Positions 1 to 45,495 of a stretch of DNA of 64,000 bases are shown here, one piece after another. Under the pieces are notes generated by a model. That model worked only from the letters and a program-made list of their open reading frames with translations. It did not search any database and was not told the DNA's origin. Source of the stretch: Candidatus Paceibacter sp. (lineage in GTDB: Bacteria > Patescibacteriota > Patescibacteriia > S139-126); the NCBI GenBank assembly GCA_020724865.1, contig DYGA01000001.1, forward strand, positions 196,624 to 260,623, written 5' to 3'. The position numbers and the translations under genes were made by a program. The number at the start of each line of letters is the position of its first letter. The stretch's first letter is position 1.

Positions 1-2
1 AT

Positions 3-668
3 GTTTTTATGCTGTTATGGTTATTGGTAAATTTAAGTTTGATGATATTACCATTTCCATTTAGTAGTCGTTATACCCAAGGCCTGCACATAATTTTAGT
101 TTATTTCACTGTTGATGCTTTGTTATATATAAATTATTATCTAAAATTAAATTTCAGTAATATTTATAAAAAAATAATTAACGGCAATACCTTACTTTTT
201 AGTATAATATTTGTTTTATTTTTTTCTTTGAGTAATATTTTTCAATTGGTAAGAGATATTTATTATTTTACAGCTAAACCCAATCAGACCGGACAAATAT
301 TTTATTTAGAACAAGGTTTGATAAGTGCTTACAGTTGGCTTGAACAACAAGCAAAAAAAAAGGTAGTTTTGGCAGCAGATATTCCAGCAAAATTCACACC
401 AAGTTACTCTGGTCAGATTGCTTATGTCGCGCATGCCCACGAAACAATTTTTTATTACGCTAAAGCAGCTTATTTAAATTGGTTTTTTGCTGATAACAAT
501 AAAGAAAACGATGACAAAAAACACGCTTGGTTACAGCGTGAAGGTATTGATTATATTTTATATTCTCCGTATGAAAAAGAATTAGGTGATTTTCAACCGC
601 AAGAAAAAAATTATTTAAAACCAGTTTTTTCCAGTGGACAAACAACAGTTTATGAAGTTTTGCCTTAA
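3..668 (+). CDS. C-terminal part of a membrane protein; the gene continues upstream of the window. Function unknown, possibly the periplasmic C-terminal domain of a GT-C-type glycosyltransferase.
   Basis: The open frame runs from the window edge. A hydrophobic N-terminal segment is followed by a soluble C-terminal region. Its stop overlaps the convergent downstream gene through a TTAA palindrome. Confidence 0.4.
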   Translation, partial: VFMLLWLLVNLSLMILPFPFSSRYTQGLHIILVYFTVDALLYINYYLKLNFSNIYKKIINGNTLLFSIIFVLFFSLSNIFQLVRDIYYFTAKPNQTGQIFYLEQGLISAYSWLEQQAKKKVVLAADIPAKFTPSYSGQIAYVAHAHETIFYYAKAAYLNWFFADNNKENDDKKHAWLQREGIDYILYSPYEKELGDFQPQEKNYLKPVFSSGQTTVYEVLP

Positions 669-2488
669 GGTAAATTTATAGTTTCACTGATTGGAGTAGT
701 TTTTAACTCGGGACTAGTTCCTCGCCAACCGTCTATAGCAATATAGCCATCAATCTCTACAATTTTTAGAGATATTTTTTCATCAGGCATTATCGGCAGT
801 AAAGTGTTATAAAATTTTTCAGTTTCCCAAGTGCTAGTTGGATAAAAATACATTAAAGGCCTAAGATATGATTTTTTATGGTTGGTGGTAATTTGCAGAA
901 AATAATCAGCTGACACTTTTTCCTTTATTTGCCAAGTTAGTTTTATTAAATTGTTTTCCGTTTTGGTATTTAGAGAAAAGTTTCCTAAATCAATTTTATT
1001 GCCAGTAGTCACAGTATAATTATAAACTGATTCAAAATTTGAAGGTTGTTCGCTTATTTGCCAAAGCATTAAACTATGATTGAAATATTTTAATTCATAA
1101 TCAGCAAGCAATTTTCTGATGTTTCCAAATCCAGCGGGATAATACTGGTGATAAGATTTTGATTGGGGAAACTGTAGGGCATAATAAATCATGTCATCAG
1201 GATCTAGTACCAGATAATCAGGTTTTTGGTATTCGTATTTTTCTTGAGAAAATTGTTGGTGACCAGTAAAAATATAATGCAGGGAGTATAAATTTTGCCG
1301 GTTGGAAAGAGGTGTTAAGTATTTATAACCAGCCGCTACTTTAGCTTCGGAAGGAATAGTAGTTAATATTTTTTGTGGCCATAGTTTTTCAGGATTTAAA
1401 TTTCTTATTACTCCCCAAGCCGGACCCAAAAATAACAGTAAATAAATCAGCGTCACCACCACAATCAATTTTGTTAAGTTAATATCAAACCATAAAAATT
1501 TGTGCAGTTTATTGTTTTGGGTTTGGATATTTTTTAGTCCCCAAATAGAGCTAACAATTAAAGCCGGAATAAAAAGTGAGGCATAATGAGTATCAACTAT
1601 AATATTACTTCCCCCTGGTTCACCTAATATAAATTGAAATAGCGGACCAAAGGCTAAAATTAAATAATTTCCTGCCAGTAGTGGTAAAAATAAAAAAGCT
1701 AACAGTAGCCCCAATATCATTTCTATATTGCCGAGAGAAAAAAAATGCAAAATAAATTGCCATAAATTGGTATTAAGTAGCCATTCGTAATATACCTGAA
1801 AACGTGAACCCCCAGTTTGGAAATGACTTATTATTATATTAGCTACGACAAAATAACCCAAACTCATAAACAGCGGTGTCAAATACCACCGCAGCGATTT
1901 TTTTTCTATCAAACCCAGTAAAAAAAATCCGCCAACTGCTATAGCTACATCTTCTCTAACCAGTAGCGCCAGGATTAGAAAAATAAAATAATATTTATAA
2001 TTGTTTTTTAAATAAAAATAATAAGCACCAAGCAACAAGGGTATAGCCAAAGGCAACAGGTGCCATTCGTGGAGATTTATATTCCAAGCCAGGGAATTTA
2101 TCAACCAAGCCAAAGCCAAAACTACAGCCAGTTTTTGATTGATAATATTTTTGGCAATCAGATAAATCGGTATGGTGACGCTAGCTATGATAATACTTTG
2201 CCAGAGTAGTAAGTTGAGTGGGGAGGGCCAGAGCCAATAAAAGGGTAAAAGTATATAAAGTAGCGGTTCAAAATGATCAGCAAAATAGTTATGACCTTGG
2301 ATACTAGACCACCAGCCATTACCGGTCGCAGCATTGTAAAAAACATTATTATAAATAGCCAAATCCAAAGCATTGTAACCCAAGAGGTAATATTTATACC
2401 AGCCAATAGTTGTTAGTACTACTACATAGGCAAACATTCCCCAATGTAAGATATATTTTTTTTCTAAAATTTGGCTAAGTTTATTCAT
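665..2488 (-). CDS. Large polytopic membrane protein, DUF2079-like / GT-C-fold glycosyltransferase-like, 607 aa.
   Basis: It has 10 or more predicted TM helices in the N-terminal half. The motif LGYNALDLAIYNNVFYN is reminiscent of the D-x-[AG]-I-[FY]-[DN] signature of DUF2079/ArnT-like membrane glycosyltransferases. A large soluble C-terminal domain follows. Confidence 0.5.
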   Translation of the reverse strand: MNKLSQILEKKYILHWGMFAYVVVLTTIGWYKYYLLGYNALDLAIYNNVFYNAATGNGWWSSIQGHNYFADHFEPLLYILLPFYWLWPSPLNLLLWQSIIIASVTIPIYLIAKNIINQKLAVVLALAWLINSLAWNINLHEWHLLPLAIPLLLGAYYFYLKNNYKYYFIFLILALLVREDVAIAVGGFFLLGLIEKKSLRWYLTPLFMSLGYFVVANIIISHFQTGGSRFQVYYEWLLNTNLWQFILHFFSLGNIEMILGLLLAFLFLPLLAGNYLILAFGPLFQFILGEPGGSNIIVDTHYASLFIPALIVSSIWGLKNIQTQNNKLHKFLWFDINLTKLIVVVTLIYLLLFLGPAWGVIRNLNPEKLWPQKILTTIPSEAKVAAGYKYLTPLSNRQNLYSLHYIFTGHQQFSQEKYEYQKPDYLVLDPDDMIYYALQFPQSKSYHQYYPAGFGNIRKLLADYELKYFNHSLMLWQISEQPSNFESVYNYTVTTGNKIDLGNFSLNTKTENNLIKLTWQIKEKVSADYFLQITTNHKKSYLRPLMYFYPTSTWETEKFYNTLLPIMPDEKISLKIVEIDGYIAIDGWRGTSPELKTTPISETINLP

Positions 2489-2603
2489 AACCTAATCATA
2501 CTGACAAATTAAATCATTGACAAATGTAAAAAAATAAATTACATTAATATGATTTATAAAAGTAAATTAATAATCAAATAATAAAAATAAAACGGAGTGA
2601 GTC

Positions 2604-2990
2604 ATGAAAAAAATATTTATTTTGGTTGTTGCTTTATTGACAGTTGTTTTGTTGGTTGGTTGTGGTTCAACTGTTGAATATACACTCAAAACTTCCAACG
2701 GGGAAGTTAAAGGAAATTTAACAGCTTATAATGTTGAGGAACTTAATGCCACTACCAAGCAAGTTGGTACATTGATTACTATAACTGATTCAAGTTTGTC
2801 TTCATCTGACCGTGCTTTACAGCTTATGTATATTACATCAATGAAGGACAGAGAAGTCCAAATTATAGTTCCTTACGGAAATTATGGTGGCTATTATGGC
2901 TACCAGGGTTCAAGGCAACAAACTAAAGATATGGAAATCAATGCGCTGGTCAGATATCAGCAGTACAAACAAAAGCAAATGCAAAAATAA
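2604..2990 (+). CDS. Small lipoprotein (signal peptide with lipobox LVGC).
   Basis: The N-terminus MKKIFILVVALLTVVLLVGCGS is a classic type II signal peptidase lipobox. A GGAG ribosome-binding site precedes the ATG. Confidence 0.55.
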   Translation: MKKIFILVVALLTVVLLVGCGSTVEYTLKTSNGEVKGNLTAYNVEELNATTKQVGTLITITDSSLSSSDRALQLMYITSMKDREVQIIVPYGNYGGYYGYQGSRQQTKDMEINALVRYQQYKQKQMQK

Positions 2991-3001
2991 TTTTTCAAAA
3001 C

Positions 3002-3038
3002 AAAAAAGCGGAAAATTTTTTCCGCTTTTTATTTTTTT
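3002..3038. terminator. Bidirectional Rho-independent terminator between the convergent lipoprotein gene and the pilin array.
   Basis: The stem GCGGAAAA pairs with TTTTCCGC around a short loop. It is flanked by an A-run upstream and a T-run downstream. Confidence 0.6.
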
Positions 3039-3052
3039 ATAAACAAATAAAA

Positions 3053-3469
3053 TTAGTAAGGTTGATAAGTGGCATAGAGGATTGCTCTAAATATCCAAGT
3101 CGATAAAGCATAAGCTAGAATCACAATCAAAAGACCAATTGTGGCTTGGGTTAATATTTTTCTAGCTTTTTCAATTTGTTGATCATTGCCAGCTGCAGTC
3201 ATCCACAAAAACCCGCCATAGATAATTAGGATGGTAAATAAAATACCCAAAAAACCAAGTAAGGCATTGATAATCAAGGCTATCACCTCTCTAATGTCAG
3301 TATCAGCATTACCCAGTTCGGCAGCTGTCCCAGTGTCAATAATGCCTTGTTTGATTTTGGTACCAGCATTTTGTCCAGTAGTGGTAGCAAGTGTAGGTAA
3401 AGCCGTTGGTAGCATTAGTAATCCCAAAACAAATGTAGAAATTATAATTGTTAATATATTTTTTTTCAT
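3053..3469 (-). CDS. VirB2/TrbC-like pilin family protein, paralog 1 of 6.
   Basis: A signal peptide is followed by two TM helices flanking the conserved motif IIYGGFLWMTAAGNDQQIEKARKIL. Its size and topology are typical of T4SS (conjugative-type) pilins. Confidence 0.6.
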   Translation of the reverse strand: MKKNILTIIISTFVLGLLMLPTALPTLATTTGQNAGTKIKQGIIDTGTAAELGNADTDIREVIALIINALLGFLGILFTILIIYGGFLWMTAAGNDQQIEKARKILTQATIGLLIVILAYALSTWIFRAILYATYQPY

Positions 3470-3478
3470 ATTTTTAAC

Positions 3479-3856
3479 TTATCCCGTAGCAGAAAGTATT
3501 ACGTCAATTATAAATAAAGATAGGGCATAGGCCAGAATAACTATCAAAAGTCCCACTGTAGAGCTGGTCAAAATTTTTCTAGCTTTTTCAATTTGTTGAT
3601 CATTGCCAGCTGCAGTCATCCATAAAAAGCCGCCGTAGATAATCAAAACCAAAAAAATAGTTCCTATAAAACCTAGAGCATATTTGATAATTTCTCCAAC
3701 CAAAAAAGCGGGATTATCAGCTTCGGCTAGTTTAGCTTTTTGGTTGGTAGCTTGGGCAGTAGTTAGGGCATCTTGCAGTACAGAAGCTTTGACTAAACTG
3801 GGCCAAGTAAATATTAGACTAATAAAAAAATAAAATTTTACTTTTAGTTTATGCAT
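3479..3856 (-). CDS. VirB2/TrbC-like pilin family protein, paralog 2. The likely start is the internal Met MHKLKV; the ORF-track start at 3874 would overlap the upstream gene.
   Basis: Its motif IIYGGFLWMTAAGNDQQIEKARKIL is identical to paralog 1, while the N-terminal mature region differs. Confidence 0.55.
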   Translation of the reverse strand: MHKLKVKFYFFISLIFTWPSLVKASVLQDALTTAQATNQKAKLAEADNPAFLVGEIIKYALGFIGTIFLVLIIYGGFLWMTAAGNDQQIEKARKILTSSTVGLLIVILAYALSLFIIDVILSATG

Positions 3857-3857
3857 A

Positions 3858-4187
3858 TTATAAACCAGCATCAATCAAAGTTCTAAAAACAAATTGAGTA
3901 ATGGCAAAAGCCAAGACCACTACCAATAGCCCAATCGTTGATGAGCGAATTATTTTTTGGGCCTTTTGTACTTTTTCTTCATTACCCGCAGCCGTCATCC
4001 AAGTAAAGCCCGCATAAATAATCAACACCAAAAAAACTGTTCCCAAAATTCCCAACACAGAATTGATAATACCACCTACCACATCTGGTAGCGAGGGATT
4101 GGTGAGACCCGTTGCCTGTTGTGCGTCAGAAAGTTGTTGATCCATAGAGGGAATTTGGGCATATACTTGTTTAATAAATTTGATCAT
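3858..4187 (-). CDS. VirB2/TrbC-like pilin family protein, paralog 3. The likely start is the internal Met MIKFIKQ.
   Basis: It carries the motif IIYAGFTWMTAAGNEEKVQKAQKII and two TM helices. Confidence 0.55.
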   Translation of the reverse strand: MIKFIKQVYAQIPSMDQQLSDAQQATGLTNPSLPDVVGGIINSVLGILGTVFLVLIIYAGFTWMTAAGNEEKVQKAQKIIRSSTIGLLVVVLAFAITQFVFRTLIDAGL

Positions 4188-4189
4188 AA

Positions 4190-4819
4190 TTAATTGCAAT
4201 TATAAACACTGCCACAAAGTTCAGCGCAAGTAGCATTGGGTCTAAATAAATTTGGCGAAATACAACTGCTGCTAGTTTGACCATCGGTGCAATTATAGCT
4301 ATTTCCAACTGGTTGCAAACAAGCGCCGGTGGTAGTCGTATTTCCACCGCCAGAACTAGACGAAGATTTTTTATAAGCTTCAATAAAAAAGTTTGTTAAG
4401 GCGAAGGAGAGAAATACTAAAATAAACCCGACCACCGCACTACCTAATATTTTTGTGGCTTGTCTGACTTTTTCTTCATTGCCTCCAGCGGTCATCCAGG
4501 TGAACCCACCATAAATAAATAACACCAACATCACCACGCCAATAATACTTAAAATACCTCTTATTATAGTGCCAATTCTAGTTCCCAAAGAAACATCGGA
4601 TTTTATACCACCAATACCAGCGGCTTTGTCTAAATTGGACAGAGAATCTGCTTTGGCTAAAGTATAAAAAGTCGGAGAATTTGACTCAATAGCAGAAGCA
4701 CCAGTTACTTCAGCTGCTAAGGCAAATTGTCCACCAATAATCACGGCGGCTACCAAAATGATAGCCACCGTGATGTGGAATGTATAATCTTTTATTTTTT
4801 TATAAAAATAAAAATTCAT
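4190..4819 (-). CDS. VirB2/TrbC-like pilin family protein, paralog 4, with a Ser/Thr-rich linker and a Cys-rich C-terminal extension. The likely start is the internal Met MNFYFYKK.
   Basis: The core motif is FIYGGFTWMTAGGNEEKVRQATKIL. The C-terminal tail reads SSSSSGGGNTTTTGACLQPVGNSYNCTDGQTSSSCISPNLFRPNATCAELCGSVYNCN, with 7 Cys and several N-x-S/T sequons. Confidence 0.55.
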   Translation of the reverse strand: MNFYFYKKIKDYTFHITVAIILVAAVIIGGQFALAAEVTGASAIESNSPTFYTLAKADSLSNLDKAAGIGGIKSDVSLGTRIGTIIRGILSIIGVVMLVLFIYGGFTWMTAGGNEEKVRQATKILGSAVVGFILVFLSFALTNFFIEAYKKSSSSSGGGNTTTTGACLQPVGNSYNCTDGQTSSSCISPNLFRPNATCAELCGSVYNCN

Positions 4820-4827
4820 TACTGTAA

Positions 4828-5181
4828 TTATTGAGTAGCACCGATGATTACGCTGAAGATCCAAGTTGATAAGGCGTAAGCAATAATGATAATAAGCAAA
4901 CCAATAACGCCGGCGCTAATAATTTTCTTAGCTTGAGCAACTGCTTCTTCGTTGCCACCTGCAGTCATCCAACGGAAGCCACCTGCGATAATAATCAAAG
5001 TCACTACGATACCCAAAATTCCTAAAACTACATTGATAATACGAGCAATAGTTTCTCTGACGTCTTGTGTACCAAGACCAATTAAACTACCGTATCCTGT
5101 TCCAAATGGGTCAGTAGCCATTGCTGCAACTGGAGCTAATAAAAGTGACAAAAGACCAAAGGCTAATAGTTGTTTTTTCAT
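4828..5181 (-). CDS. VirB2/TrbC-like pilin family protein, paralog 5. It has its own strong RBS and a 117-nt upstream spacer, so it may be the major subunit.
   Basis: The motif is IIAGGFRWMTAGGNEEAVAQAKKII, with a signal peptide ending LLAPVAAMA. The sequence GAAAGGAGGTG lies immediately upstream of the ATG on the minus strand. Confidence 0.6.
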   Translation of the reverse strand: MKKQLLAFGLLSLLLAPVAAMATDPFGTGYGSLIGLGTQDVRETIARIINVVLGILGIVVTLIIIAGGFRWMTAGGNEEAVAQAKKIISAGVIGLLIIIIAYALSTWIFSVIIGATQ

Positions 5182-5298
5182 AATGTCACCTCCTTTCTAA
5201 AATTATATTTTTAAATCATACCTTTTACACTTTACACTAATTAGTGTCTAAGGTGATTTTATTATAACAGATATTATTTATTTTGTAAAGTTGATTTA

Positions 5299-5943
5299 TT
5301 AAGGTGAAGTGCGGCAACATTGAACAGTGGACCCGCCATTACATAAATTTGGCGTGCAAGTTCCATTACAACTTGTTGTGCAGTTTTCTAAACAGATACC
5401 AGCGTAATTGTAAGCGCAGACAGTATTGATAAGCGTATTATTTTCACCATTTTGACAAATATTATTGATACAAACATACACATTACCATCTGGTCCAGAA
5501 CAATTTGCACCATCAGGTTTACCTAAGCATTCCGAAGAAGTAGTATTGGAACTATTTGGATTTAGTTGGTATTGGCCTTTGACACCAATAAGTTTTTGTA
5601 AGTTAGATACAATTACATAGCTACCCAAAACAATTGCCAAACCAATCACAGTACCGACTAAGATATTGCGAGCGCGAGTAATTCGTTCTTGATTGCCACC
5701 GGAAGTAATAAACATCACCCCGCCAATGACCATTAACAGCAGTCCTGCTGCACCAAGATATTTAACTAAAAATAAATAAAAATTGGCAAACATTTGCACT
5801 AAATCAACCAAGTCGCATTTTTCTGCATTTCCTACCAAGCAATCATTCGGAATAATAGGTGAAGTTTGGGCAAAAGCTAAGCTAGGCAGAAAACCTAAGG
5901 CCAAAAACAGAAAAATAAAGAAAATATTTTTTTTAGTTTGCAT
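5299..5943 (-). CDS. VirB2/TrbC-like pilin family protein, paralog 6, with a long Cys-rich, sequon-rich C-terminal knob.
   Basis: The core is ITSGGNQERITRARNIL, with a TM helix on each side. The C-terminal ~85 aa contain about 16 Cys and the sequons NSSNTT, NCSG, NNTL, NCTT and NGTC. Its start overlaps the stop of the upstream SBP gene by 11 nt. Confidence 0.55.
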   Translation of the reverse strand: MQTKKNIFFIFLFLALGFLPSLAFAQTSPIIPNDCLVGNAEKCDLVDLVQMFANFYLFLVKYLGAAGLLLMVIGGVMFITSGGNQERITRARNILVGTVIGLAIVLGSYVIVSNLQKLIGVKGQYQLNPNSSNTTSSECLGKPDGANCSGPDGNVYVCINNICQNGENNTLINTVCAYNYAGICLENCTTSCNGTCTPNLCNGGSTVQCCRTSP

Positions 5944-7339
5944 AAGTTGGTTTAATATAAGTTTGTTTTAGTTGTTCGACGGTATTGCGCATTAGCATAT
6001 TAAGATCAGAAAAATTACCTTGGTTCACTGTGGCTATAAGTTGTTTAATAATTTCTTCAGCTGCAATTGGATTGTAACCCCGATACCAACTTTCCGCAGT
6101 TAATGCTTGTTGGGTAAAGACCGAAGAGTTTGGTTCCGCTTGCTGTTTGGCGATTAGTTCTTTTAATGCGGGAGCTTTGCCGGATTTGGTCAAATAAGTT
6201 TCATTGTATTCTGGTTTAGTGGTGGCAAATAAGATAAAATCCCAAGCCGTATCTTTGATTTGCTGCTCACCACGGGGAGATACTCCCAACAACCAGTAGT
6301 TAGCAAAATTATATTTTTTAGCCAAAGGATCAATTTGTGGCAAGGGGGCAATGCCAAAATCTATTTTTGGTCCGCGGGCTCTGATTAAGGGAGCGTGGTA
6401 AGAATAGCCAAACATCATTGCGGTTCGCCCTTGAGCAAATGCATCCAGTGAATTGGGAAAGGTTTGATTCCAGGTATAAACTTCTTTGATGGGATTGGCA
6501 AAATCCGTATAAAAAATTAGAGCTTGTTGGCCGGGATTGTAGTCTTGACTGCCGCCGGGTGGAATTTTGTCAAAAGCCGGCATGTTGTCCGCACCAATCA
6601 TCTGTGCGCCATTTTGCATCATCAGTACCGACAAAATATCTGTGCCCCGTTCCACATTATCAGCTCTGCCCATAGCCACTGCGCTCCTGACTATTTTATT
6701 ATCCGTATCCAGTCGAGTGAGTGAAAGTACATCTTGTTTAAATTCTGCCCAGGTAGAAGGTGGAGTAGCAATATTAGCATCACTGAATAAAGTTTTATTG
6801 TAGTAAAGCGCCAAGGTATCTAGACCCAAAGGTAAGGCATAAATTTTATTATCTCGAATGACATCGTCTTTGACAACTTTGACAAATTTTTCATCCACTT
6901 GAACTGGGGTGAGAGTGGGAAAATCTTTTAGTTCCCAAATAACCTCTTTCTTGAATGTTCCTTTTGTAGTTTGGATTGGTAAAGCTATGGTTTGTGGTAA
7001 AGGTTCTAATTTTGTTTGGTAAGCTGTCACCCAAGTATTATGTAACATAAAAATATCTGGACCTCTATTTTCTGCCCAAGCTTCCAGCAATGCTCGTTCG
7101 TACTCTTCAATGCGTAGTTTTCGATATTCAAAATTGACATTGGGTCGAGTTTTTTTATACTCGGTAAAAATATCTTGCAACAAATCTTGCTCATCCCATA
7201 CCCCCCAAATTTTTAAAGTGATAGGTTTAGCTGCTTTTTGCGCTTCGGGATCACCGCCTTTGCAACCCACTCCCAACAGCGGTAAAGATAACATAATTAT
7301 CGTCAGTCCAAAAAATTTTATTTTAGTTAAACTTTTCAT
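5933..7339 (-). CDS. ABC-transporter-type extracellular solute-binding lipoprotein (family 1, sugar-type). It is an orphan, with no permease or ATPase adjacent.
   Basis: There is a lipobox LLGVGCKGG. The overall length and the aromatic- and Gly-rich pattern fit family 1 substrate-binding proteins. It is translationally coupled to pilin paralog 6. Confidence 0.55.
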   Translation of the reverse strand: MKSLTKIKFFGLTIIMLSLPLLGVGCKGGDPEAQKAAKPITLKIWGVWDEQDLLQDIFTEYKKTRPNVNFEYRKLRIEEYERALLEAWAENRGPDIFMLHNTWVTAYQTKLEPLPQTIALPIQTTKGTFKKEVIWELKDFPTLTPVQVDEKFVKVVKDDVIRDNKIYALPLGLDTLALYYNKTLFSDANIATPPSTWAEFKQDVLSLTRLDTDNKIVRSAVAMGRADNVERGTDILSVLMMQNGAQMIGADNMPAFDKIPPGGSQDYNPGQQALIFYTDFANPIKEVYTWNQTFPNSLDAFAQGRTAMMFGYSYHAPLIRARGPKIDFGIAPLPQIDPLAKKYNFANYWLLGVSPRGEQQIKDTAWDFILFATTKPEYNETYLTKSGKAPALKELIAKQQAEPNSSVFTQQALTAESWYRGYNPIAAEEIIKQLIATVNQGNFSDLNMLMRNTVEQLKQTYIKPTYAN

Positions 7340-7349
7340 AAAACTACAT

Positions 7350-8234
7350 TTAGATTAATTTTTTTAGATAGGCTTTTAGATCTTTGCTTATCTCCTTATC
7401 TTTTAGTCCATAAGCAATATTGGCTTTCAACCAAGTCAGTTTGTTACCGGTATCATAGTATATGCCGTCAACAATTTTGGAATAAATTGGACGAGTTTTT
7501 CCCAAAGCATCCACAGCATCAACTAGCCACAGTTCATTGCCTTTGCCTAGTTTGGTTTTTTCTAAAATCGGGAAAATATCAGGAGTCAAAATATAACCGC
7601 CCAAATTAGCAATCAATGAAGGAGTTTTTTCTGGCCCTGGTTTTTCAATAATTTTTTCTATCTGATAAACCGTTGGTTCAACTTTTACGCCTTTGAGCAT
7701 GCCGTATTTGGCAGCATCGGCTCTAGGCACTTGGTAACCAGTTGTTACCGGATCGCCATATTTTTGAAAAACTTCAATTAGTTGCAATAACCTTGGTTTA
7801 TCAGGACAATCAAAAACTTCATCTCCCCATAACATAGCAAACGGTTCATTGCCTACAATCGGTTTGGCATTCAAGATTGGCGTTCCATTGCCATAAGGGC
7901 CTTTTTGTCTGATATAAATAAAATTCGCAAGACGCGAAATATTTTTTATTTTTTCATACAGATCTTTTTTAGCTGGACTGCTTTTTAAAATTTCTTCCAG
8001 TTCGGGTGAGCGGTCAAAGTGATCTTCACAGGCGCGTTTAGTATAAGAAGTAACAAAAATAATATCAGTAATACCTGAGGCAACCGCTTCTTCAACCACG
8101 TATTGCAAAATTGGTTTGTCCAATATTGGCAACATTTCTTTGGGAATGGCCTTGGTAGCTGGTAAAAATCTAGTTCCCAGTCCCGCAACAGGAATTACTA
8201 CTTTTCGGATTGGATGAGTAAATTTTTTGGTCAT
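7350..8234 (-). CDS. galU: UTP--glucose-1-phosphate uridylyltransferase.
   Basis: The N-terminal motif VIPVAGLGTRFLPATKAIPKEMLPILDKP and the downstream VDAV..LG pattern are hallmarks of the GalU family. Confidence 0.85.
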   Translation of the reverse strand: MTKKFTHPIRKVVIPVAGLGTRFLPATKAIPKEMLPILDKPILQYVVEEAVASGITDIIFVTSYTKRACEDHFDRSPELEEILKSSPAKKDLYEKIKNISRLANFIYIRQKGPYGNGTPILNAKPIVGNEPFAMLWGDEVFDCPDKPRLLQLIEVFQKYGDPVTTGYQVPRADAAKYGMLKGVKVEPTVYQIEKIIEKPGPEKTPSLIANLGGYILTPDIFPILEKTKLGKGNELWLVDAVDALGKTRPIYSKIVDGIYYDTGNKLTWLKANIAYGLKDKEISKDLKAYLKKLI

Positions 8235-8789
8235 GACAAACTATTAGTTTAATTTATTATAACAAAAATTACCAGTTTTATCCAAATTAAATAAAAAAAT
8301 AAAAAGATACTGTAATTCAAAAGTAACAGTATTTTTTAATATAGAAATTAGTTTAGTGTAAAATCTTGATAAAATACAATGAATTGCAAATGATACTTGT
8401 ACGTCTTTTTTATTTAGTTACAAACATAAAATCAAAAATTTTTTTTACAATTCCTTATTCAAACAGAAATCACTTTGCAAATTGGTGTAAAATTGAAAAA
8501 TAGTTTTGATTTAATCCTATTGTTTTGTTATTTAAAAAAACTTATATTTATTTTTATTATTGTTCAAATATTTAATTTATTCTTGTTTTTTATTCACGTT
8601 GATGCAAAATCATTCATTTTAACTTTACGCTTACTTTTTACAATTACCTTGTATTGGTCTTTTGTATTTGCTCTCATGATATCTTTCGGCATTTGTTTCG
8701 TTTTCCCTACATTATTTATTTTGTGATAACTATAAAAAAACAAATTTAACTAATGTAAAGATAAATTTTTACTTTTTTGTTTATTCAAT

Positions 8790-9637
8790 TTAGGGATTAC
8801 AATATTCACAGTATTTAGGATCAGCAATTTTATCATAGTTGTTGTTATGTCTTTTTTCTTCGTAATTACATACAGAACATTTATATAGGTCATAAATAGG
8901 TAATTCTGTTGGTGAATTACACTATGAACATCTTAGTCCTTTTTTAAAATCGACAACAATAAAACCAGGAGCTTTGCACCGTGGGCATAAAGATTTAATG
9001 TTTTTTATTAAATCTTCAGTTGCTTTTTTTATTGCTTTCATGCGTGTAGGGTTTCTATGCGCTCGCATGTCGGACTCAATAAAAATTCTATTTGTAAAAA
9101 AATTATTTAATAATTTTTTAACTGTTTTTATTAGGTCTTTTTCTGTTGCAATATCCTTATAAATTCCAAAATGTCCATTTTTACTTTTTCTTACAATTAC
9201 ACCATGTTCAGGAAAGCCAATTTTTTTAGCAAAATCTAGTGCTTCCTCTACGGTTGTAACATATTGACCGTCTATGTTTGTTTCTGGAGTTCTGTGATGT
9301 CCCAGAATTTCAAACCCGTTTTTCTTGTCAATAAACAATAATAATTCTAAATTACCTTGAACAAAGGGGATTGATGGATGAGGACTAAAACTACCTTCAC
9401 TTGAAATACCTAAATCAACATTCTCAATTTTCATAGCCGCATGCAATTTTCTCGCGCGGCTTCTAATTGATTGCCAGCTCTTTTTATATCTCTAGTAAAA
9501 GTACCAAACTTATCAGAGTTAAATTGTTTGGGAACTACAATTTCAACATCAAAATGTTTTTTAATTAAAGGAGCAATCACTTGTTCTTTTTTATACATTG
9601 TGGCTATAACAATTTTTCTGCCTTTAAGTATATACAT
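8790..9637 (-). pseudogene. Disrupted gene of unknown function, carrying one frameshift in an A4 homopolymer and one in-frame TAG followed by a continuing zinc-ribbon-like coding sequence.
   Basis: ORFs 9431..9637 and 8922..9446 abut in different frames. Adding one A to the run GAGAAAATTG fuses them into a continuous ...QLEAAREKLHAAMKIENV... protein. After the TAG at 8922 the same frame continues without a stop as CNSPTELPIYDLYKCSVCNYEEKRHNNNYDKIADPKYCEYCNP, which supplies further CxxC pairs to partner the CPRC motif just upstream of the stop. Confidence 0.5.
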
Positions 9638-11900: not shown

Positions 11901-12806
11901 ATGAAATATAACCAATTAACCTCAGAAGAAAAAAGAATCATCGAAGATAAAGGTACAGAAATGCCAGGCAGTGGTGAGTATGATGATTTTTTTGAGAGTG
12001 GAATCTATACTTGCCGAAGATGCAATGCCTGGCTCTACCGCTCAGCAGATAAATTTTCCGCTCACTGCGGTTGGCCCAGTTTTGATCAAGAAATTGCTGG
12101 AGCAGTTATTAGACAAACAGATGCTGACGGACAGCGTACTGAAATTTTGTGTGCACGCTGTGGTGGACATTTGGGGCATGTATTTATCGGAGAAAAATTT
12201 ACGGCGCGTGATACCCGTCACTGTGTTAATTCTTTGTCTTTGCGTTTTATCCCTGAATCTGAATTAAAAGAAAAAATTCAAACTATAGTTTTGGGTGGTG
12301 GGTGTTTTTGGTGTTTGGAAGCATATTTTTCGCAAGTGCAAGGAATCACCTTAGTTATATCTGGTTATGCGGGCGGTGATATAGAAAATCCTACCTATGA
12401 GCAGGTTTGCAGTGGCAAGACTGGTCATGCTGAAGTAGTGAAAATAGAATTTGACCAAACCCAAATTGCTCTGGAAATGATTTTACAAATATTTTTTACA
12501 TTGCATGATCCTACTACCCGCAATCGTCAAGGCGCTGATGTTGGTAGTCAGTACCGCTCAATCATTTTGACTAAAGATGATGAACAAAAAGATATTGTAG
12601 AAAATTTTGTCAGTAAGTTAATTGAAAGTAAATTATTTTTTAAACCCATTGTCACAGAAGTAAAACTTTTGGATAAGTTTTATCAAGCCGAAGATTATCA
12701 CCAGGAATATTTTAAAAATCATCCCGAAGCCGCTTACTGCCAGGCCGTGATTTCCCCTAAACTTGCCAAATTGCGTCAGCATTTTTCTTTACTTTTGAAA
12801 CCCTAA
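11901..12806 (+). CDS. msrAB: Bifunctional peptide-methionine sulfoxide reductase MsrB-MsrA, with the B domain N-terminal.
   Basis: The N-terminal half carries the MsrB zinc and catalytic motifs CRRC ... HCGWPSF ... CARCGGHLGHVF. The C-terminal half carries the MsrA active site GGGCFWC and the GHAEVV motif. Confidence 0.85.
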   Translation: MKYNQLTSEEKRIIEDKGTEMPGSGEYDDFFESGIYTCRRCNAWLYRSADKFSAHCGWPSFDQEIAGAVIRQTDADGQRTEILCARCGGHLGHVFIGEKFTARDTRHCVNSLSLRFIPESELKEKIQTIVLGGGCFWCLEAYFSQVQGITLVISGYAGGDIENPTYEQVCSGKTGHAEVVKIEFDQTQIALEMILQIFFTLHDPTTRNRQGADVGSQYRSIILTKDDEQKDIVENFVSKLIESKLFFKPIVTEVKLLDKFYQAEDYHQEYFKNHPEAAYCQAVISPKLAKLRQHFSLLLKP

Positions 12807-20287: not shown

Positions 20288-21571
20288 TTAGTCAATAGAT
20301 TTAGTTCTAAAATATAATAATATTGCGGGTAAAAATAAAATAAAGTAAAACAGAATAGATAAATCGTTTTTAAAATACGGCGTATCTAAAAGACCGTGTG
20401 TCAAAGTAGCGATTAGAGCTGACAGACTTCCAGCTAAATACCACCAATCCAGTGAATCAAGATTTTGATGTAAAAGTTTGTAAACAGTTTTTCCGTAAAT
20501 AAATATCAAATAGCTAAATGCTAACAGTCCTAGCAGTCCTACTTCCAACCAAATATTTAAAAATAAGTTATGGGCTTTAACCACTTCCCATTCTAGAGGA
20601 GGTTGAAACATGGCAAAAGCCTGCGCGCGATAAGGTTGATAAAAATTTCCCAGTCCCACGCCTAGAATTGGTTTTTGTTTTAGTAACTCAAGAGAGATTT
20701 CCCAGATTTGTAAGCGGGTGGTAAGGGAGTTGCGCTCAGTTAAATTGATAATTTTTTGGAATTTGGATTGACCAGCAATGATTAGACTGCCAGCTAAACA
20801 TAAAAATAAAAAAATAATAGTAGCAATTTTTTTTATTTTTTTATCACTAATAAAAACAAGAAGAATTATAATTCCCGCCACTAGCCCTAAAAATCCACCG
20901 TATGATTTGGTATACCATAAAGCAACCAACTGCAGACTAATAAGAAAGCTGATTAGAATTCGTCTGCGCAGAGTAAAACTGTTTTTTAATTCTCCCCAGC
21001 CCAAAAAAATTATCGGTACTACCAGCATGGCTACATAGTTAGCTGGTTTGTATACAGAATTAAGTAGTCCGTCAGCCTGCATACCAAAATTAAAAATATA
21101 TTCCAATAAACCCCAGATCGCCACCAATGCCCCACTGCCTAGCAGACCGGTGATTACATACTTAAGGTCAGATTTATTTTTTATCAAAATTAAACTAACC
21201 AGTAAAAATAAAATTGGATCAAACCACCAACCCTTGAGTACCCCAGCTGATAATCGTAAATCTGGAGAAATAATTGTCGCAATGGTGGCGGCTAAAAACC
21301 AAAATAATACTGCCCACCACAGCGGTTTATAATTGCGCCATATCAATAATAAAGTGTTTTTCAGTTGAGCTGATCTGACTAAAGAAATAAAAGTAATGAG
21401 TGCTAAAATATAAATAGCCAATTCCAGCCAAGTGGTAGGAATAAACCAAATTTGGGTTCGTAGTAGATAAGTGGGCAATAACATCAATAGTAACCAGCCA
21501 GCTAGACGGATATTTAAAAAAGCGATTAAAGCAAAGAAAAACAGGCTTAAGTAAAAAATGGCAATCATCAT
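20288..21571 (-). CDS. O-antigen ligase family (Wzy_C domain) membrane protein. It could be a WaaL-type ligase, a Wzy polymerase or a PglL/PilO-type O-oligosaccharyltransferase.
   Basis: It is polytopic, with about 10-12 TM helices and a periplasmic loop. The motif HNLFLNIWLEVGLLGLLAF fits the Wzy_C H..yL ... E.G..G signature. Confidence 0.6.
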   Translation of the reverse strand: MMIAIFYLSLFFFALIAFLNIRLAGWLLLMLLPTYLLRTQIWFIPTTWLELAIYILALITFISLVRSAQLKNTLLLIWRNYKPLWWAVLFWFLAATIATIISPDLRLSAGVLKGWWFDPILFLLVSLILIKNKSDLKYVITGLLGSGALVAIWGLLEYIFNFGMQADGLLNSVYKPANYVAMLVVPIIFLGWGELKNSFTLRRRILISFLISLQLVALWYTKSYGGFLGLVAGIIILLVFISDKKIKKIATIIFLFLCLAGSLIIAGQSKFQKIINLTERNSLTTRLQIWEISLELLKQKPILGVGLGNFYQPYRAQAFAMFQPPLEWEVVKAHNLFLNIWLEVGLLGLLAFSYLIFIYGKTVYKLLHQNLDSLDWWYLAGSLSALIATLTHGLLDTPYFKNDLSILFYFILFLPAILLYFRTKSID

Positions 21572-45315: not shown

Positions 45316-45353
45316 TTTTGTTTACAGATTTTAAGTTGATTTTGTTGTTAATT

Positions 45354-45428
45354 GTCCCCGTAGTTCAATGGATAGAATGCGAGCTTCCGGAGCTCGAGAT
45401 ATGGGTTCGATTCCTATCGGGGACACCA
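45354..45428 (+). tRNA. tRNA-Arg (anticodon CCG), with encoded CCA.
   Basis: The acceptor GTCCCCG pairs with CGGGGAC. The anticodon stem CGAGC/GCTCG carries the loop TTCCGGA. The T-arm is GGGTTCGATTCC. Confidence 0.8.
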
Positions 45429-45495
45429 ATTGCATTAGAAAAAATATGACATTCAAAGAATAATAATCAATATAATAATAAATCGTAATAATATA

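What the first reader, a model, noticed from the sequence alone, without database searches (positions are those of the whole stretch)
4190..5943. Two pilin paralogs carry Ser/Thr-rich linkers and cysteine-rich, sequon-rich C-terminal knobs, with glycan-handling genes elsewhere in the window
Paralog 4 ends with SSSSSGGGNTTTTG followed by a 45-aa module with 7 Cys. Paralog 6 ends with NPNSSNTTSSE followed by an ~80-aa module with about 16 Cys (CxxxxC, CC and CxxxC spacings) and at least 5 N-x-S/T sequons. Low-complexity Ser/Thr linkers ahead of a disulfide-rich knob are typical of O-glycosylated tip adhesins. Elsewhere in the window are a Wzy_C / O-antigen-ligase-family protein (20288-21571; this family includes the PglL/PilO pilin O-oligosaccharyltransferases), a Wzx-like flippase (21568-22989), GalU (7350-8234, immediately upstream of the array) and a sugar-1-P nucleotidyltransferase (44557-45315). 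The hypothesis is that these pilin-like proteins are glycosylated, disulfide-stabilised surface adhesins, possibly used by an episymbiont to attach to its host.
Basis: inference. Interest (0 to 1): 0.6.

Follow-up and report, generated by a model that had tools for sequence, protein, structure and literature searches.

The report
Cysteine-knobbed VirB2-like pilins in Patescibacteria
Two genes in a six-gene array of conjugation-type (VirB2-like) pilins from an ultrasmall Patescibacteria genome carry small cysteine-rich domains on tails predicted to face outward; this decoration is widespread in such arrays and has not, as far as I could find, been described, while the proposed sugar coating has only neighbouring sugar genes in its favour.

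Summary
All six tandem genes (3053-5943, minus strand) are VirB2/TrbC-like type IV secretion pilins (Pfam PF18895), not type IV pilus pilins. Paralog 4 has 6 Cys in a 44-aa knob, not 7. Paralog 6 has 12 Cys in 76 aa, not about 16. Other proteins in the window contain 0.46% Cys. Cys positions are conserved in orthologues down to 53-55% identity. A signal peptide plus two membrane helices places both termini outside the cell.

N-x-S/T sequons are not enriched beyond composition, and none fits the bacterial PglB sequon. The Wzy_C/Wzx pair lies 14 kb away in another gene context and has no PglL-specific signature.

The paralog-6 knob belongs to an unannotated 10-Cys domain ending NLCPGx5CC. It sits on the first pilin downstream of a dedicated SBP_bac_1 lipoprotein. 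In 47 of 47 metagenomic SBP clusters a VirB2-like pilin follows directly, and 32 of 47 arrays include Cys-rich pilins. GalU lies directly upstream in 29 of 46.

Best reading: these are modular, disulfide-stabilised recognition domains displayed on a VirB2-like pilin. Glycosylation remains untested.

The parts
5299..5943 (-). Paralog 6: VirB2-like pilin (214 aa) with a C-terminal 12-Cys knob. It is the first pilin after the SBP gene.
   Evidence: PF18895 scores 24.4 bits, just under the gathering cut-off of 26.6. Orthologues P0007, P0008, P0011 and P0013 carry PF18895. The core HMM built from A5 hits it. Fourteen homologues were found.
5869..5943 (-). Paralog 6 signal peptide (aa 1-25, ...SLAFA/QT)
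   Evidence: Read directly from the sequence. The hydrophobic segment is aa 7-25.
5815..5841 (-). Paralog 6 N-terminal Cys pair (C35...C43), just before the first membrane helix
   Evidence: Invariant in all 15 aligned sequences. An equivalent C-x5-7-C loop occurs in distant first pilins.
5596..5769 (-). Paralog 6 membrane-helix hairpin with the SGGNQERITRAR loop (aa 59-116)
   Evidence: Hydropathy peaks at aa 63-81 and 94-112. The PF18895 match covers aa 59-114.
5530..5562 (-). Paralog 6 Ser/Thr/Asn-rich linker NPNSSNTTSSE (aa 128-138)
   Evidence: The composition is conserved across orthologues but the sequence is not.
5302..5529 (-). Paralog 6 knob: 76 aa with 12 Cys, ending TPNLCNGGSTVQCCRTSP
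   Evidence: The Cys pattern is conserved down to 55% identity. Nine Cys columns are invariant across 12 sequences that are 26-59% identical to the window's knob. The AF2 model has mean pLDDT 68.5 and is beta-rich. It has no PDB, Pfam or BFVD relative.
4190..4819 (-). Paralog 4: VirB2-like pilin (209 aa from M16; the longest ORF runs to 4864) with a C-terminal 6-Cys knob
   Evidence: PF18895 scores 37.1 bits. Gene callers give 209 aa. Twenty homologues were found.
4715..4819 (-). Paralog 4 signal peptide (aa 1-35, ...QFALA/AE)
   Evidence: Read directly from the sequence. The hydrophobic segment is aa 16-34.
4382..4579 (-). Paralog 4 membrane-helix hairpin with the TAGGNEEKVRQATK loop (aa 81-146)
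   Evidence: Hydropathy. AF2 predicts helices 78-110 and 115-154 at pLDDT about 74.
4325..4372 (-). Paralog 4 Ser/Gly/Thr linker KKSSSSSGGGNTTTTG (aa 150-165)
   Evidence: AF2 pLDDT is below 50 over aa 149-161, consistent with a flexible segment.
4193..4324 (-). Paralog 4 knob: 44 aa with 6 Cys
   Evidence: Five of the six Cys are invariant and the sixth is kept in all but the most divergent orthologue, down to 53% identity. AF2 pLDDT is 69-80, with a beta-hairpin and a short helix. It has no PDB or Pfam relative. This position carries no Cys knob in L010 and no tail in L011.
4828..5181 (-). Paralog 5: plain VirB2-like pilin (117 aa, no Cys). It is the most conserved member and a candidate major subunit.
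   Evidence: PF18895 scores 39.7 bits. It is 91-99% identical in L007-L009.
3053..4199 (-). Paralogs 3, 2 and 1 (3858-4199, 3479-3874, 3053-3469): plain VirB2-like pilins with no Cys
   Evidence: PF18895 scores of 37.6, 28.1 and 34.1 bits. Cys counts.
5261..5289 (-). Promoter-like site TTTACA-17-TGnTATAAT between paralogs 6 and 5, followed by an AGGAGG ribosome-binding site before paralog 5
   Evidence: It shares the top score (11 of 12 matches) in the 2400-8800 scan and is the top-ranked site. Sequence. This is a consensus match only.
3003..3030 (.). Bidirectional terminator-like hairpin after paralog 1
   Evidence: A 12-bp stem followed by a T run on both strands.
5933..7339 (-). SBP_bac_1 lipoprotein (lipobox LGVGC) whose stop overlaps the paralog 6 start by 11 nt. 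It is a dedicated partner of the pilin arrays.
   Evidence: Pfam. In 47 of 47 metagenomic clusters of this SBP subfamily with enough downstream sequence, a VirB2-like pilin gene follows on the same strand.
7350..8234 (-). GalU (UTP-glucose-1-phosphate uridylyltransferase), directly upstream of the SBP gene
   Evidence: TIGR01099 scores 294.6 bits, below the 326.8 cut-off. A GalU homologue lies directly upstream of the SBP gene in 29 of 46 clusters.
665..2488 (-). DUF2079 polytopic membrane protein downstream of the array. Beyond it lie two paralogous polytopic membrane proteins (window 1-668 is the C-terminal end of the first) and a GT2 glycosyltransferase. This set is conserved only within the window's own clade.
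   Evidence: Pfam and NCBIfam. Synteny in L007-L010. Absent from the distant arrays L012-L015. Its link to the pilins is conjecture.

Best explanation
The two ORFs are VirB2/TrbC-like type IV secretion pilin paralogs from a Patescibacteria (CPR) chromosome. The six-gene array appears to be split into two transcription units: galU-SBP-paralog 6, and promoter-paralogs 5-4-3-2-1-terminator.

Each protein is exported by a Sec signal peptide and inserts as a two-helix hairpin. The short basic loop faces the cytoplasm and both termini face outward. This follows from the sequence and from established VirB2/TraA topology.

Paralogs 4 and 6 extend the outward-facing C-terminus with a short flexible Ser/Thr/Gly/Asn linker and a compact, beta-rich module. 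That module is held by 3 and 6 disulfides respectively (inferred from even, conserved Cys counts).

The paralog-6 module belongs to a widespread, previously unannotated 10-Cys domain with framework C-x7-9-C...C-x3-4-C-x3-C...C...C-x2-NLCPG-x5-CC. The domain always sits on the first pilin after a dedicated SBP_bac_1 lipoprotein. The paralog-4 module is a younger, lineage-restricted addition.

I infer that these knobs are displayed on the cell surface or on the outside of a VirB2-type filament, as minor, specificity-determining subunits alongside plain subunits such as paralog 5. They would act as modular, fast-evolving recognition or adhesion domains toward a host or partner cell.

Glycosylation of the linkers is possible but not indicated by any specific evidence.
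For: Family membership:
- PF18895 hits all six paralogs.
- Relatives also hit TrbC PF04956.
- Source names of relatives read 'pilin [Patescibacteria group / Ca. Magasanikbacteria]'.

Topology:
- Signal peptide plus two hydrophobic helices.
- AF2 predicts a helical hairpin, a disordered linker and a compact knob.
- Across 70 pilins from 9 loci, Cys density is 0.1% in the hairpin, 2.0% N-terminal to it and 9.6% C-terminal to it.
- Terminal Cys counts are even in about 36 of 39 cases.

The knobs are real domains:
- Cys columns are conserved down to 53-55% identity.
- Nine Cys are invariant across 12 knobs that are 26-59% identical to the window's knob.
- The knob HMM hits 16 of 1,973 ORFs, and all 16 are pilins.
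- dN/dS for knob 6 against L007 is about 0.07.

Modularity:
- The paralog-6 tail has 12, 8 or 6 Cys in different relatives.
- The paralog-4 knob is absent in L010 and L011.
- The paralog-4 knob has much higher dN than its hairpin.

Generality:
- In 47 of 47 SBP clusters a pilin follows.
- In 20 of 47 the first pilin has at least 4 Cys C-terminal to the hairpin.
- In 32 of 47 arrays at least one pilin is Cys-rich.

Literature:
- VirB2-like pilin arrays of 2-11 genes are known in Patescibacteria and are thought to aid adaptation to hosts (PMC12102498).
- The arrays are essential in Southlakia (PMC10633639; PMC12857230).
Against: - No VirB4, VirB6 or other T4SS machinery gene was recognised among the window's ORFs of at least 110 aa, or in the annotated neighbourhoods of up to 10 kb around the related arrays. 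Assembly into a pilus is therefore assumed, not shown.
- Paralog 6 scores just under the Pfam gathering threshold.
- The AF2 models are only moderately confident (pLDDT 58-69) and rest on 13 aligned sequences. Disulfide connectivity could not be read out.
- No fold relative was found, so no binding function can be inferred from structure.
- No disulfide-forming enzyme (DsbA or VKOR) is recognisable in the window.
- A 5-8 kDa domain on every subunit might not fit a VirB2-type helical lattice. The 'minor subunit' idea is conjecture.
Confidence: 0.62

Rival explanations
1. The Ser/Thr linkers and sequons are glycosylated by the Wzy_C protein (20288-21571), which would act as a PglL/TfpO-type O-oligosaccharyltransferase. 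The Wzx flippase, GalU and the second nucleotidyltransferase would feed it, producing glycosylated tip adhesins.
For: - Wzy_C and a MOP flippase are present and adjacent to each other.
- The organism is probably monoderm, so a lipid A-core ligase role is unlikely (inference from the Patescibacteria assignment).
- Ser/Thr/Pro/Gly-rich C-terminal tails are common on these pilins.
- GalU is a conserved neighbour.
Against: - Only the generic Wzy_C domain is detected. There is no PglL_A or Wzy_C_2 hit.
- The best NCBIfam hits (IctB 72.9 bits against a cut-off of 366; PEP_O_lig_1 47 against 188) fall far below threshold.
- The only PDB relative by sequence is WaaL 7tpg, at E = 4.5e-4.
- The gene lies 14.3 kb from the array, in a different gene context (SpoIID, arginine decarboxylase).
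- It is absent from the annotated neighbourhoods (up to 10 kb to either side) of six related arrays.
- Sequons are not enriched and none has the extended PglB form. No STT3-family protein was found in the window.
- The nucleotidyltransferase at 44557-45315 sits among FemAB and Mur ligase genes.
Confidence: 0.12
2. The pilins are glycosylated, or otherwise sugar-linked, by locus-encoded functions rather than by Wzy_C. GalU would supply UDP-glucose. A GT2 polyprenyl-phosphate-sugar-synthase-like enzyme, together with DUF2079 and the two paralogous polytopic membrane proteins (or a GT28/MGDG-synthase-like enzyme in distant arrays), would transfer hexose outside the membrane. This resembles the Streptococcus mutans Pgf system or actinobacterial PMT systems.
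For: - GalU lies directly upstream of the SBP-pilin unit in 29 of 46 clusters, although the flanking genes otherwise differ.
- A glycosyltransferase gene sits at the distal end of, or within, the arrays in L012-L015 (GT28 or GT2).
- The GT2 + two polytopic proteins + DUF2079 set is conserved in L007-L010.
- The GT2's best NCBIfam hits are polyprenyl-phosphate glycosyltransferases: AglJ, PpgS, DPM-type, ArnC and PgfS.
- Many pilins end in TP/ST-rich tails.
Against: - All NCBIfam hits are far below their cut-offs.
- The window's GT2 and the L015 GT2 share only 25% identity over 130 aa.
- DUF2079 and the polytopic paralogs are absent from the distant arrays.
- No sequence link was found between the polytopic proteins and DUF2079 or any solved GT-C enzyme.
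- GalU plus a GT28 enzyme could equally make membrane glycolipid.
- GalU is absent upstream in 17 of 46 clusters.
Confidence: 0.22
3. These proteins never polymerise. The VirB2-like hairpin serves only as a membrane anchor that presents small disulfide-rich ectodomains at the cell surface, possibly working together with the SBP lipoprotein, for example as a receptor or uptake module.
For: - No T4SS machinery gene was recognised in the window or in the related neighbourhoods of up to 10 kb.
- The SBP gene is universally and tightly coupled to the first pilin, often with overlapping stop and start codons.
- Bulky extensions of up to about 195 aa (L012, L013, L073, L076) look hard to fit on a filament subunit.
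Against: - Plain paralogs in the same operon look like ordinary VirB2-type subunits.
- In other Patescibacteria the pilin arrays sit inside T4SS clusters and are essential.
- VirB2-type pilins place their termini on the filament exterior (established knowledge), so decoration is geometrically conceivable.
Confidence: 0.2
4. The knobs are cargo, not decoration. They would be cleaved from the pilin, as the C-terminal peptide of TrbC/VirB2 is removed before cyclisation, and released as defensin- or knottin-like Cys-rich peptides acting on the host or on competitors.
For: - C-terminal processing of TrbC and VirB2 is established (own knowledge).
- Some six-Cys modules in distant arrays follow a C...C...C...C...CC spacing reminiscent of beta-defensins.
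Against: - No conserved cleavage motif is visible at the linker.
- The N-terminal Cys-rich modules found in other arrays would not be released in this way.
- The resemblance is in spacing pattern only. There is no Pfam, PDB or fold match.
Confidence: 0.05

Closest known systems
VirB2-like pilin arrays of Patescibacteria (Southlakia epibionticum SEML1_0006-0019 cluster; Nanosynbacter TM7x array; survey by Quinonero-Coronel et al. 2025, PMC12102498)
   Same: - Same Pfam family (PF18895/PF04956).
- Tandem arrays of 2-11 divergent paralogs.
- Sec signal peptides.
- Chromosomal location in ultrasmall monoderm bacteria.
- A proposed role in host interaction.
   Different: - The papers I read describe sequence-divergent but structurally conserved small pilins. 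They do not mention cysteine-rich modules, disulfides, SBP or galU (term searches).
- Here the array is not next to virB4. It is coupled to galU and an SBP lipoprotein, and two of its six members carry disulfide-rich C-terminal domains.
Canonical T4SS pilins VirB2 (Agrobacterium T-pilus), TrbC (RP4) and TraA (F pilus)
   Same: Signal peptide, a two-helix hydrophobic hairpin with a short polar loop, and termini facing the periplasm or filament exterior (established knowledge). Rank 5 in the Foldseek search was an archaeal conjugation pilin (8dfu, TMt 0.63, E = 3.3, not significant).
   Different: - Canonical pilins are about 70 aa when mature and carry no extra domains.
- TrbC and VirB2 lose their C-terminal peptide and are cyclised.
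- Adhesion is assigned to a separate protein, VirB5.
- Here an adhesin-like module is fused to the pilin itself, in a probable monoderm.
O-glycosylated type IV pilins (Neisseria PilE/PglL; Pseudomonas 1244 PilA/TfpO)
   Same: Surface filament subunits with Ser/Thr-containing exposed segments, a C-terminal disulfide-bonded region, and a Wzy_C-family transferase encoded somewhere in the genome.
   Different: - Unrelated pilin fold and assembly system (PilA N-methyl class against the VirB2 class).
- The TfpO gene lies directly next to pilA, whereas here Wzy_C is 14 kb away.
- No PglL-specific domain is detected.
Streptococcus mutans Pgf system (PgfS GT2 plus PgfM1/PgfM2 membrane proteins modifying Thr-rich adhesins Cnm and WapA; own knowledge)
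   Same: A GT2 of the polyprenyl-phosphate-sugar-synthase type and several polytopic membrane proteins are encoded beside genes for surface proteins with Ser/Thr-rich segments. PgfS is among the GT2's NCBIfam hits (46.7 bits).
   Different: The PgfS hit is far below its cut-off of 500. The polytopic proteins have no detectable similarity to any family. This gene set is conserved only within the window's clade.
Small disulfide-rich domains (beta-defensin-like and knottin-like)
   Same: They are 44-76 aa long with 6-12 Cys, are predicted to be beta-rich, and end in a CC doublet.
   Different: There is no sequence or fold match to any Pfam, PDB or BFVD entry. The resemblance is in Cys spacing only.

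Membership tests
T4SS_pilin / VirB2-TrbC class (PF18895, PF04956) | Profile match above the curated threshold | tested here: met
   Paralogs 1-5 score 28.1-39.7 bits against a gathering cut-off of 26.6. Paralog 6 scores 24.4 bits, just below, but its orthologues carry PF18895 and the core HMM built from A5 hits it.
T4SS_pilin / VirB2-TrbC class (PF18895, PF04956) | Signal peptide followed by two hydrophobic helices joined by a short polar or basic loop, with both termini extracytoplasmic | tested here: met
   Hydropathy and sequence. AF2 helical hairpin. Cys-rich modules occur only outside the hairpin. The topology itself is inferred, not measured.
T4SS_pilin / VirB2-TrbC class (PF18895, PF04956) | Encoded with T4SS machinery (VirB4, VirB6, VirB3, VirB8) | tested here: not met
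   None was recognised among the 51 window ORFs of at least 110 aa, although about 15 of these had no Pfam hit. None appears in the annotated neighbourhoods of up to 10 kb around L010-L015. Presence elsewhere in the genome could not be tested. In the published survey, about 40% of pilin-carrying assemblies have pilins away from virB4.
T4SS_pilin / VirB2-TrbC class (PF18895, PF04956) | Polymerises into an extracellular filament | not testable with these tools
   Needs microscopy or biochemistry.
PglL/TfpO pilin O-oligosaccharyltransferases (for ORF 20288-21571) | Wzy_C domain in a polytopic membrane protein | tested here: met
   PF04932 scores 74.6 bits. Hydropathy indicates roughly 10 or more hydrophobic segments.
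PglL/TfpO pilin O-oligosaccharyltransferases (for ORF 20288-21571) | PglL-specific accessory signature (PglL_A PF15864 or Wzy_C_2 PF11846; family identities from my own knowledge) or a curated PglL model hit | tested here: not met
   Only Wzy_C is found at E <= 1e-3 in Pfam. NCBIfam gives only IctB and PEP_O_lig_1, both far below cut-off.
PglL/TfpO pilin O-oligosaccharyltransferases (for ORF 20288-21571) | Genomic linkage to its pilin substrate (TfpO type) | tested here: not met
   It lies 14.3 kb from the array in a separate gene context. No Wzy_C gene appears in the annotated neighbourhoods (up to 10 kb to either side) of six related arrays.
PglL/TfpO pilin O-oligosaccharyltransferases (for ORF 20288-21571) | Phylogenetic grouping with PglL/TfpO rather than with WaaL or Wzy | not tested
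The only PDB relative is WaaL 7tpg at E = 4.5e-4.
PglB-type bacterial N-glycosylation | Extended sequon D/E-x-N-x-S/T and an STT3-family transferase | tested here: not met
   None of the 9 sequons has the extended form. No STT3 hit was found among the window ORFs.
Par6-type 10-Cys knob domain (defined here) | Cys framework C-x7-9-C...C-x3-4-C-x3-C...C...C-x2-NLCPG-x5-CC, C-terminal to a VirB2-like hairpin, on the first pilin after the SBP gene | tested here: met
   Nine invariant Cys columns plus an invariant Gly across 12 sequences. The knob HMM scores the window protein at 25 bits, E = 2e-6. All 16 of its hits are pilins, and those examined individually are the first pilin after the SBP gene. 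The window sequence was part of the training alignment.

The most novel reading that the evidence does not exclude
Patescibacteria carry a conserved cassette: (galU)-SBP lipoprotein-VirB2-like pilin array. In it, interchangeable disulfide-rich mini-domains are fused to either outward-facing end of the pilin subunits. The cassette would then be a combinatorial, fast-evolving display system for host recognition, built on a conjugation-type pilus in a monoderm. The dedicated SBP, and possibly UDP-glucose-derived sugar or glycolipid, would be integral parts of the machine. This would give the essential but functionally unexplained pilin arrays of episymbiotic bacteria a concrete, testable specificity determinant, and would define at least one new extracellular domain family.
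Probability: 0.3. Interest if true: 0.78.

Novelty: new variant of a known kind. Interest (0 to 1): 0.58.

Why it matters
VirB2-like pilin arrays are among the few envelope systems shown to be essential for the epibiotic life of Patescibacteria, yet what they bind or do is unknown. If some array members carry conserved, disulfide-rich outward-facing domains, and the arrays are invariably coupled to a particular lipoprotein, that yields concrete handles:
- Domains can be expressed and used as baits to find host receptors.
- The pattern of domain gain, loss and swapping can be compared with host range.
- A new domain family and a new locus definition can be added to annotation pipelines.

It would also be, as far as I could find, the first example of a T4SS pilin fused to an adhesin-like module rather than relying on a separate tip protein.

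Tried and rejected
- Sequence searches of the knobs. Pfam, PDB sequences and a 12-sequence knob profile against PDB all returned nothing.
- phmmer of knob 6 against 1.84 billion representatives. Only its own family scored convincingly (P0006, 2e-16). The other seven hits below 1e-3 were weak; the three checked are beta-propeller or tandem-repeat proteins (two with NHL/Vgb_lyase repeats sharing a 'CSGPDGNvyv' motif), so I rejected them as spurious. Single-sequence search missed the distant knobs that synteny later revealed.
- First family survey with the core profile. It suggested Cys-rich pilins are rare (2 of 115 had at least 4 Cys). That sample was biased toward plain, paralog-5-like pilins, and array-level sampling overturned it.
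- Linking the two polytopic proteins to DUF2079 or to GT-C enzymes. hhalign gave probability 0.5%, and the PDB profile searches and Pfam at E <= 10 gave nothing. My recollection that DUF2079 belongs to the Pfam GT-C clan could not be checked. A literature search for DUF2079 returned no papers.
- dN/dS. Synonymous sites are near saturation (dS about 1-2), so the ratios are only rough.
- Taxonomy from cluster names. No organism names were returned, and the window contains no rRNA gene.
- Metal-binding (metallothionein-like) reading. Rejected because of the extracytoplasmic location, the even conserved Cys counts and the predicted beta-rich fold.

Full report
**What is at the coordinates**

The region 3053-5943 holds six tandem minus-strand ORFs. 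All six match Pfam PF18895 T4SS_pilin, the VirB2/TrbC-like pilin family. Paralogs 1-5 score 28-40 bits against a gathering cut-off of 26.6. Paralog 6 scores 24.4 bits, but its orthologues carry PF18895 and a core profile hits it. These are therefore conjugation-type (type IV secretion) pilins, not type IV pilus pilins.

Relatives are named 'pilin [Patescibacteria group bacterium]' or 'Candidatus Magasanikbacteria' by their sources. Several features fit a Patescibacteria chromosome:
- The window has 28-39% GC across 2-kb windows.
- It carries FemAB and SpoIID genes.
- Orthologous MAG contigs of 0.56-0.72 Mb exist.

The exact sequence lies on a 346-kb JGI contig.

**Checking the observation**

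Paralog 4 almost certainly starts at M16, giving 4190-4819 and 209 aa, as gene callers call it. The knob has 6 Cys in 44 aa.

Paralog 6 has 12 Cys in a 76-aa knob, plus an invariant Cys pair near the mature N-terminus.

The other 49 large ORFs in the window contain 0.46% Cys. The enrichment is extreme, with binomial P of 2e-15 and 5e-8.

The sequon counts (6 and 3) do not exceed composition-matched shuffles (P = 0.05 and 0.30). No sequon has the bacterial extended form D/E-x-N-x-S/T. Only one sequon is conserved among orthologues.

**Are the tails real domains?**

Paralog 6 has 14 homologues, and the 12-Cys pattern is kept down to 55% identity. More distant orthologues have shorter tails with 8 or 6 Cys but keep the ending PNLCxGxxxxxCC.

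Paralog 4 has 9 full-length orthologues. Five of its six Cys are invariant and the sixth is kept in all but the most divergent orthologue, down to 53% identity.

Knob 6 is under purifying selection against L007, with dN/dS about 0.07. Knob 4 changes much faster than its membrane hairpin. dS is near saturation, so these ratios are rough.

AF2 results:
- Knob 6 alone: mean pLDDT 68.5, several short strands.
- Full-length paralog 4: a helical hairpin at about 74, a linker below 50, and a compact knob at 69-80.

Neither knob has a relative in Pfam, in PDB sequences, or by Foldseek in PDB or BFVD.

**Topology**

Both proteins have a classical signal peptide followed by two hydrophobic helices joined by a short basic loop. 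This places both termini outside the membrane, as established for VirB2 and TraA (own knowledge).

An internal check agrees. In 70 VirB2-like pilins from nine loci, Cys density is 0.1% in the hairpin, 2.0% N-terminal to it and 9.6% C-terminal to it. Terminal Cys counts are even in about 36 of 39 cases. Extracytoplasmic disulfide-bonded modules would show exactly this pattern.

**Operon structure**

- The SBP_bac_1 lipoprotein gene (5933-7339) overlaps the paralog 6 start by 11 nt, and GalU (7350-8234) lies just upstream.
- The top-ranked promoter-like site in 2400-8800 (TTTACA-17-TGnTATAAT, 5289-5261) and a strong ribosome-binding site precede paralog 5.
- A bidirectional terminator (3003-3030) follows paralog 1.

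Paralog 6 therefore appears to belong to a galU-SBP unit, and paralog 4 to the unit led by paralog 5. Paralog 5 is plain and the most conserved member (91-99% identity in relatives), which makes it the candidate major subunit. These are consensus matches, not proof of transcription units.

**Going beyond the window**

The order galU-SBP-six pilins-lipoprotein-DUF2079-two polytopic paralogs-GT2 is conserved in the closely related L007-L010.

In four much more distant genomes (SBP 35-37% identical and GalU about 60% where compared; L013's SBP gene is split), galU-SBP is again followed by 8-12 VirB2-like pilin genes, although the other flanking genes differ. One of these genomes is an NCBI Ca. 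Magasanikbacteria MAG. Several pilins per array carry Cys-rich modules at the C-terminus or the mature N-terminus, with up to 24 Cys.

I then scanned metagenomes using the SBP as the query, which is unbiased with respect to pilins. The results:
- 80 loci fell into 58 clusters at 90% identity.
- All 47 clusters with at least 900 bp downstream have a VirB2-like pilin gene starting within 900 bp on the same strand. The gap is usually between -37 and +150 nt, and the stop and start codons often overlap.
- In 20 of 47 the first pilin has at least 4 Cys C-terminal to the hairpin.
- In 32 of 47 arrays at least one pilin has at least 4 Cys at a terminus.
- GalU is directly upstream in 29 of 46.

**The paralog-6 knob is a domain family**

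I aligned 12 first-pilin tails that are 26-59% identical to the window's knob. Nine Cys columns and one Gly are invariant. The framework is C-x7-9-(D)G-x2-C ... C-x3-4-C-x3-C ... C ... C-x2-NLCPG-x5-CC.

An HMM built from this alignment hits 16 of 1,973 ORFs in the fetched loci. All 16 are pilins, and those examined individually are the first pilin after the SBP gene. The profile matches nothing in PDB or Pfam.

The paralog-4 knob is a different and younger module. It is present in L007-L009 and L016-L018, but this position has no knob in L010 or L011.

**Glycosylation**

The Wzy_C protein shows only the generic domain. It has no PglL_A or Wzy_C_2 hit, and its NCBIfam hits are far below cut-off. 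Its sole PDB relative is WaaL 7tpg at E = 4.5e-4. It pairs with a Wzx-type flippase 14 kb from the array. No Wzy_C gene appears in the annotated neighbourhoods, up to 10 kb to either side, of six related arrays. The simplest reading is a Wzx/Wzy-type surface polysaccharide pathway.

The nucleotidyltransferase at 44557-45315 overlaps a FemAB gene and neighbours a Mur ligase, which is a cell-wall context.

What does remain:
- GalU is a recurrent neighbour of the arrays.
- Glycosyltransferase genes sit at the array ends. In the window's clade this is a GT2 resembling polyprenyl-phosphate sugar synthases; in distant arrays it is a GT28/MGDG-synthase-like or GT2 enzyme.
- Many plain pilins end in short Ser/Thr/Pro-rich tails.

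This is compatible with O-glycosylation. It is equally compatible with glycolipid synthesis or cell-wall roles. Nothing here tests it.

**Literature**

- Arrays of 2-11 VirB2-like pilins were reported in 383 Patescibacteria assemblies. Their variability was proposed to aid adaptation to hosts (PMC12102498).
- In Southlakia the pilins lie in an essential T4SS cluster (PMC10633639; review PMC12857230).
- Term searches of PMC12102498 found no mention of Cys-rich pilin modules, disulfides, an SBP partner or galU, and PMC10633639 does not mention glycosylation.
- A full-text search combining Patescibacteria, pilin, cysteine-rich, disulfide and glycosylated surfaced no paper mentioning Patescibacteria among the 15 top-ranked.

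The library is incomplete, so prior description elsewhere cannot be excluded.

**Verdict**

- The 'glycosylated via Wzy_C' part is not supported.
- The adhesin role is plausible but untested.

Knob-bearing VirB2-like pilins, and a dedicated SBP partner, are a general and apparently undescribed feature of these arrays. I rate this a new variant of a known kind, of moderate to good interest.

Noticed in passing
window 5933-7339 (SBP) with 5299-5943; loci L016-L095: This SBP_bac_1 lipoprotein subfamily is always followed on the same strand by a VirB2-like pilin gene (47 of 47 clusters), often with overlapping stop and start codons. No ABC permease or ATPase was recognised within about 10 kb on the sides examined in the window and L001. 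It looks like a dedicated component of the pilin locus rather than a transporter subunit.
   Followed up: yes
window 7350-8234; L011-L015 and L016-L095: GalU lies directly upstream of the SBP-pilin unit in 29 of 46 clusters, even where the other flanking genes differ. The reason is unknown; glycosylation, glycolipid synthesis and cell-wall roles are all possible.
   Followed up: partly
window 1-2488 and L001:13456-19291: Downstream of the array lie DUF2079, two paralogous polytopic membrane proteins of about 555 aa, and a 237-aa GT2 resembling polyprenyl-phosphate sugar synthases. The two paralogs are 30% identical, share an invariant PGD motif after the first helix, have a C-terminal soluble domain and match no Pfam family. 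The set is conserved in L007-L010 but not in distant arrays.
   Followed up: partly
P0042-P0047; L012:8606-9502: Some proteins contain two VirB2-like pilin hairpins fused in tandem (211-298 aa). Some of these have Cys-rich segments before the first hairpin or between the two.
   Followed up: no
L012:2376-6225, L013:2339-6122, L015:1814-5653: In distant arrays, three genes lie immediately upstream of galU. Two of them carry N_methyl (type IV pilin-like prepilin) signatures (about 600 aa and about 210 aa), and the third is about 460 aa. This hints at a link between type IV pilus-like and VirB2-like systems.
   Followed up: no
L007, L008, L009 (CAZINS010000009.1, CAZUKA010000001.1, CAZBLW010000001.1): The record titles call these MAGs 'uncultured Gammaproteobacteria bacterium'. 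Their gene content (VirB2-like pilin arrays whose named relatives are Patescibacteria, and synteny with the window) and contigs of 0.56-0.72 Mb point to Patescibacteria, so the label looks wrong.
   Followed up: partly
L009:9935-10501; L010:11130-11609; L011:3622-4050: Knobs are gained, lost and remodelled between close relatives. The paralog-6 tail has 12, 8 or 6 Cys. The paralog-4 position carries a 6-Cys knob, a Ser/Thr-rich tail only, or nothing.
   Followed up: yes
window 5485-5514 (paralog 6 aa 144-153, GANCSGPDGN...): The motif CSGPDGNVYV mimics a blade motif of NHL/Vgb_lyase beta-propellers. It produced spurious phmmer hits to large repeat proteins.
   Followed up: yes
window 43503-46749: The second sugar-1-phosphate nucleotidyltransferase (44557-45315) overlaps a FemAB-family gene by 8 nt. 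It is followed by tRNA-Arg and a Mur ligase. This is a peptidoglycan context, not a pilin-glycan one.
   Followed up: partly
L003:2696-4081 versus L001 and L002: One strain-level variant of the contig carries an extra radical-SAM gene inserted between the Msr and YgaP-like genes, about 6 kb from the array.
   Followed up: no
window 11901-12806: The fused MsrB-MsrA (SelR+PMSR) protein has 10 Cys, the next highest Cys content in the window (3.3%). No DsbA- or VKOR-like thiol oxidase is recognisable in the 64 kb.
   Followed up: no
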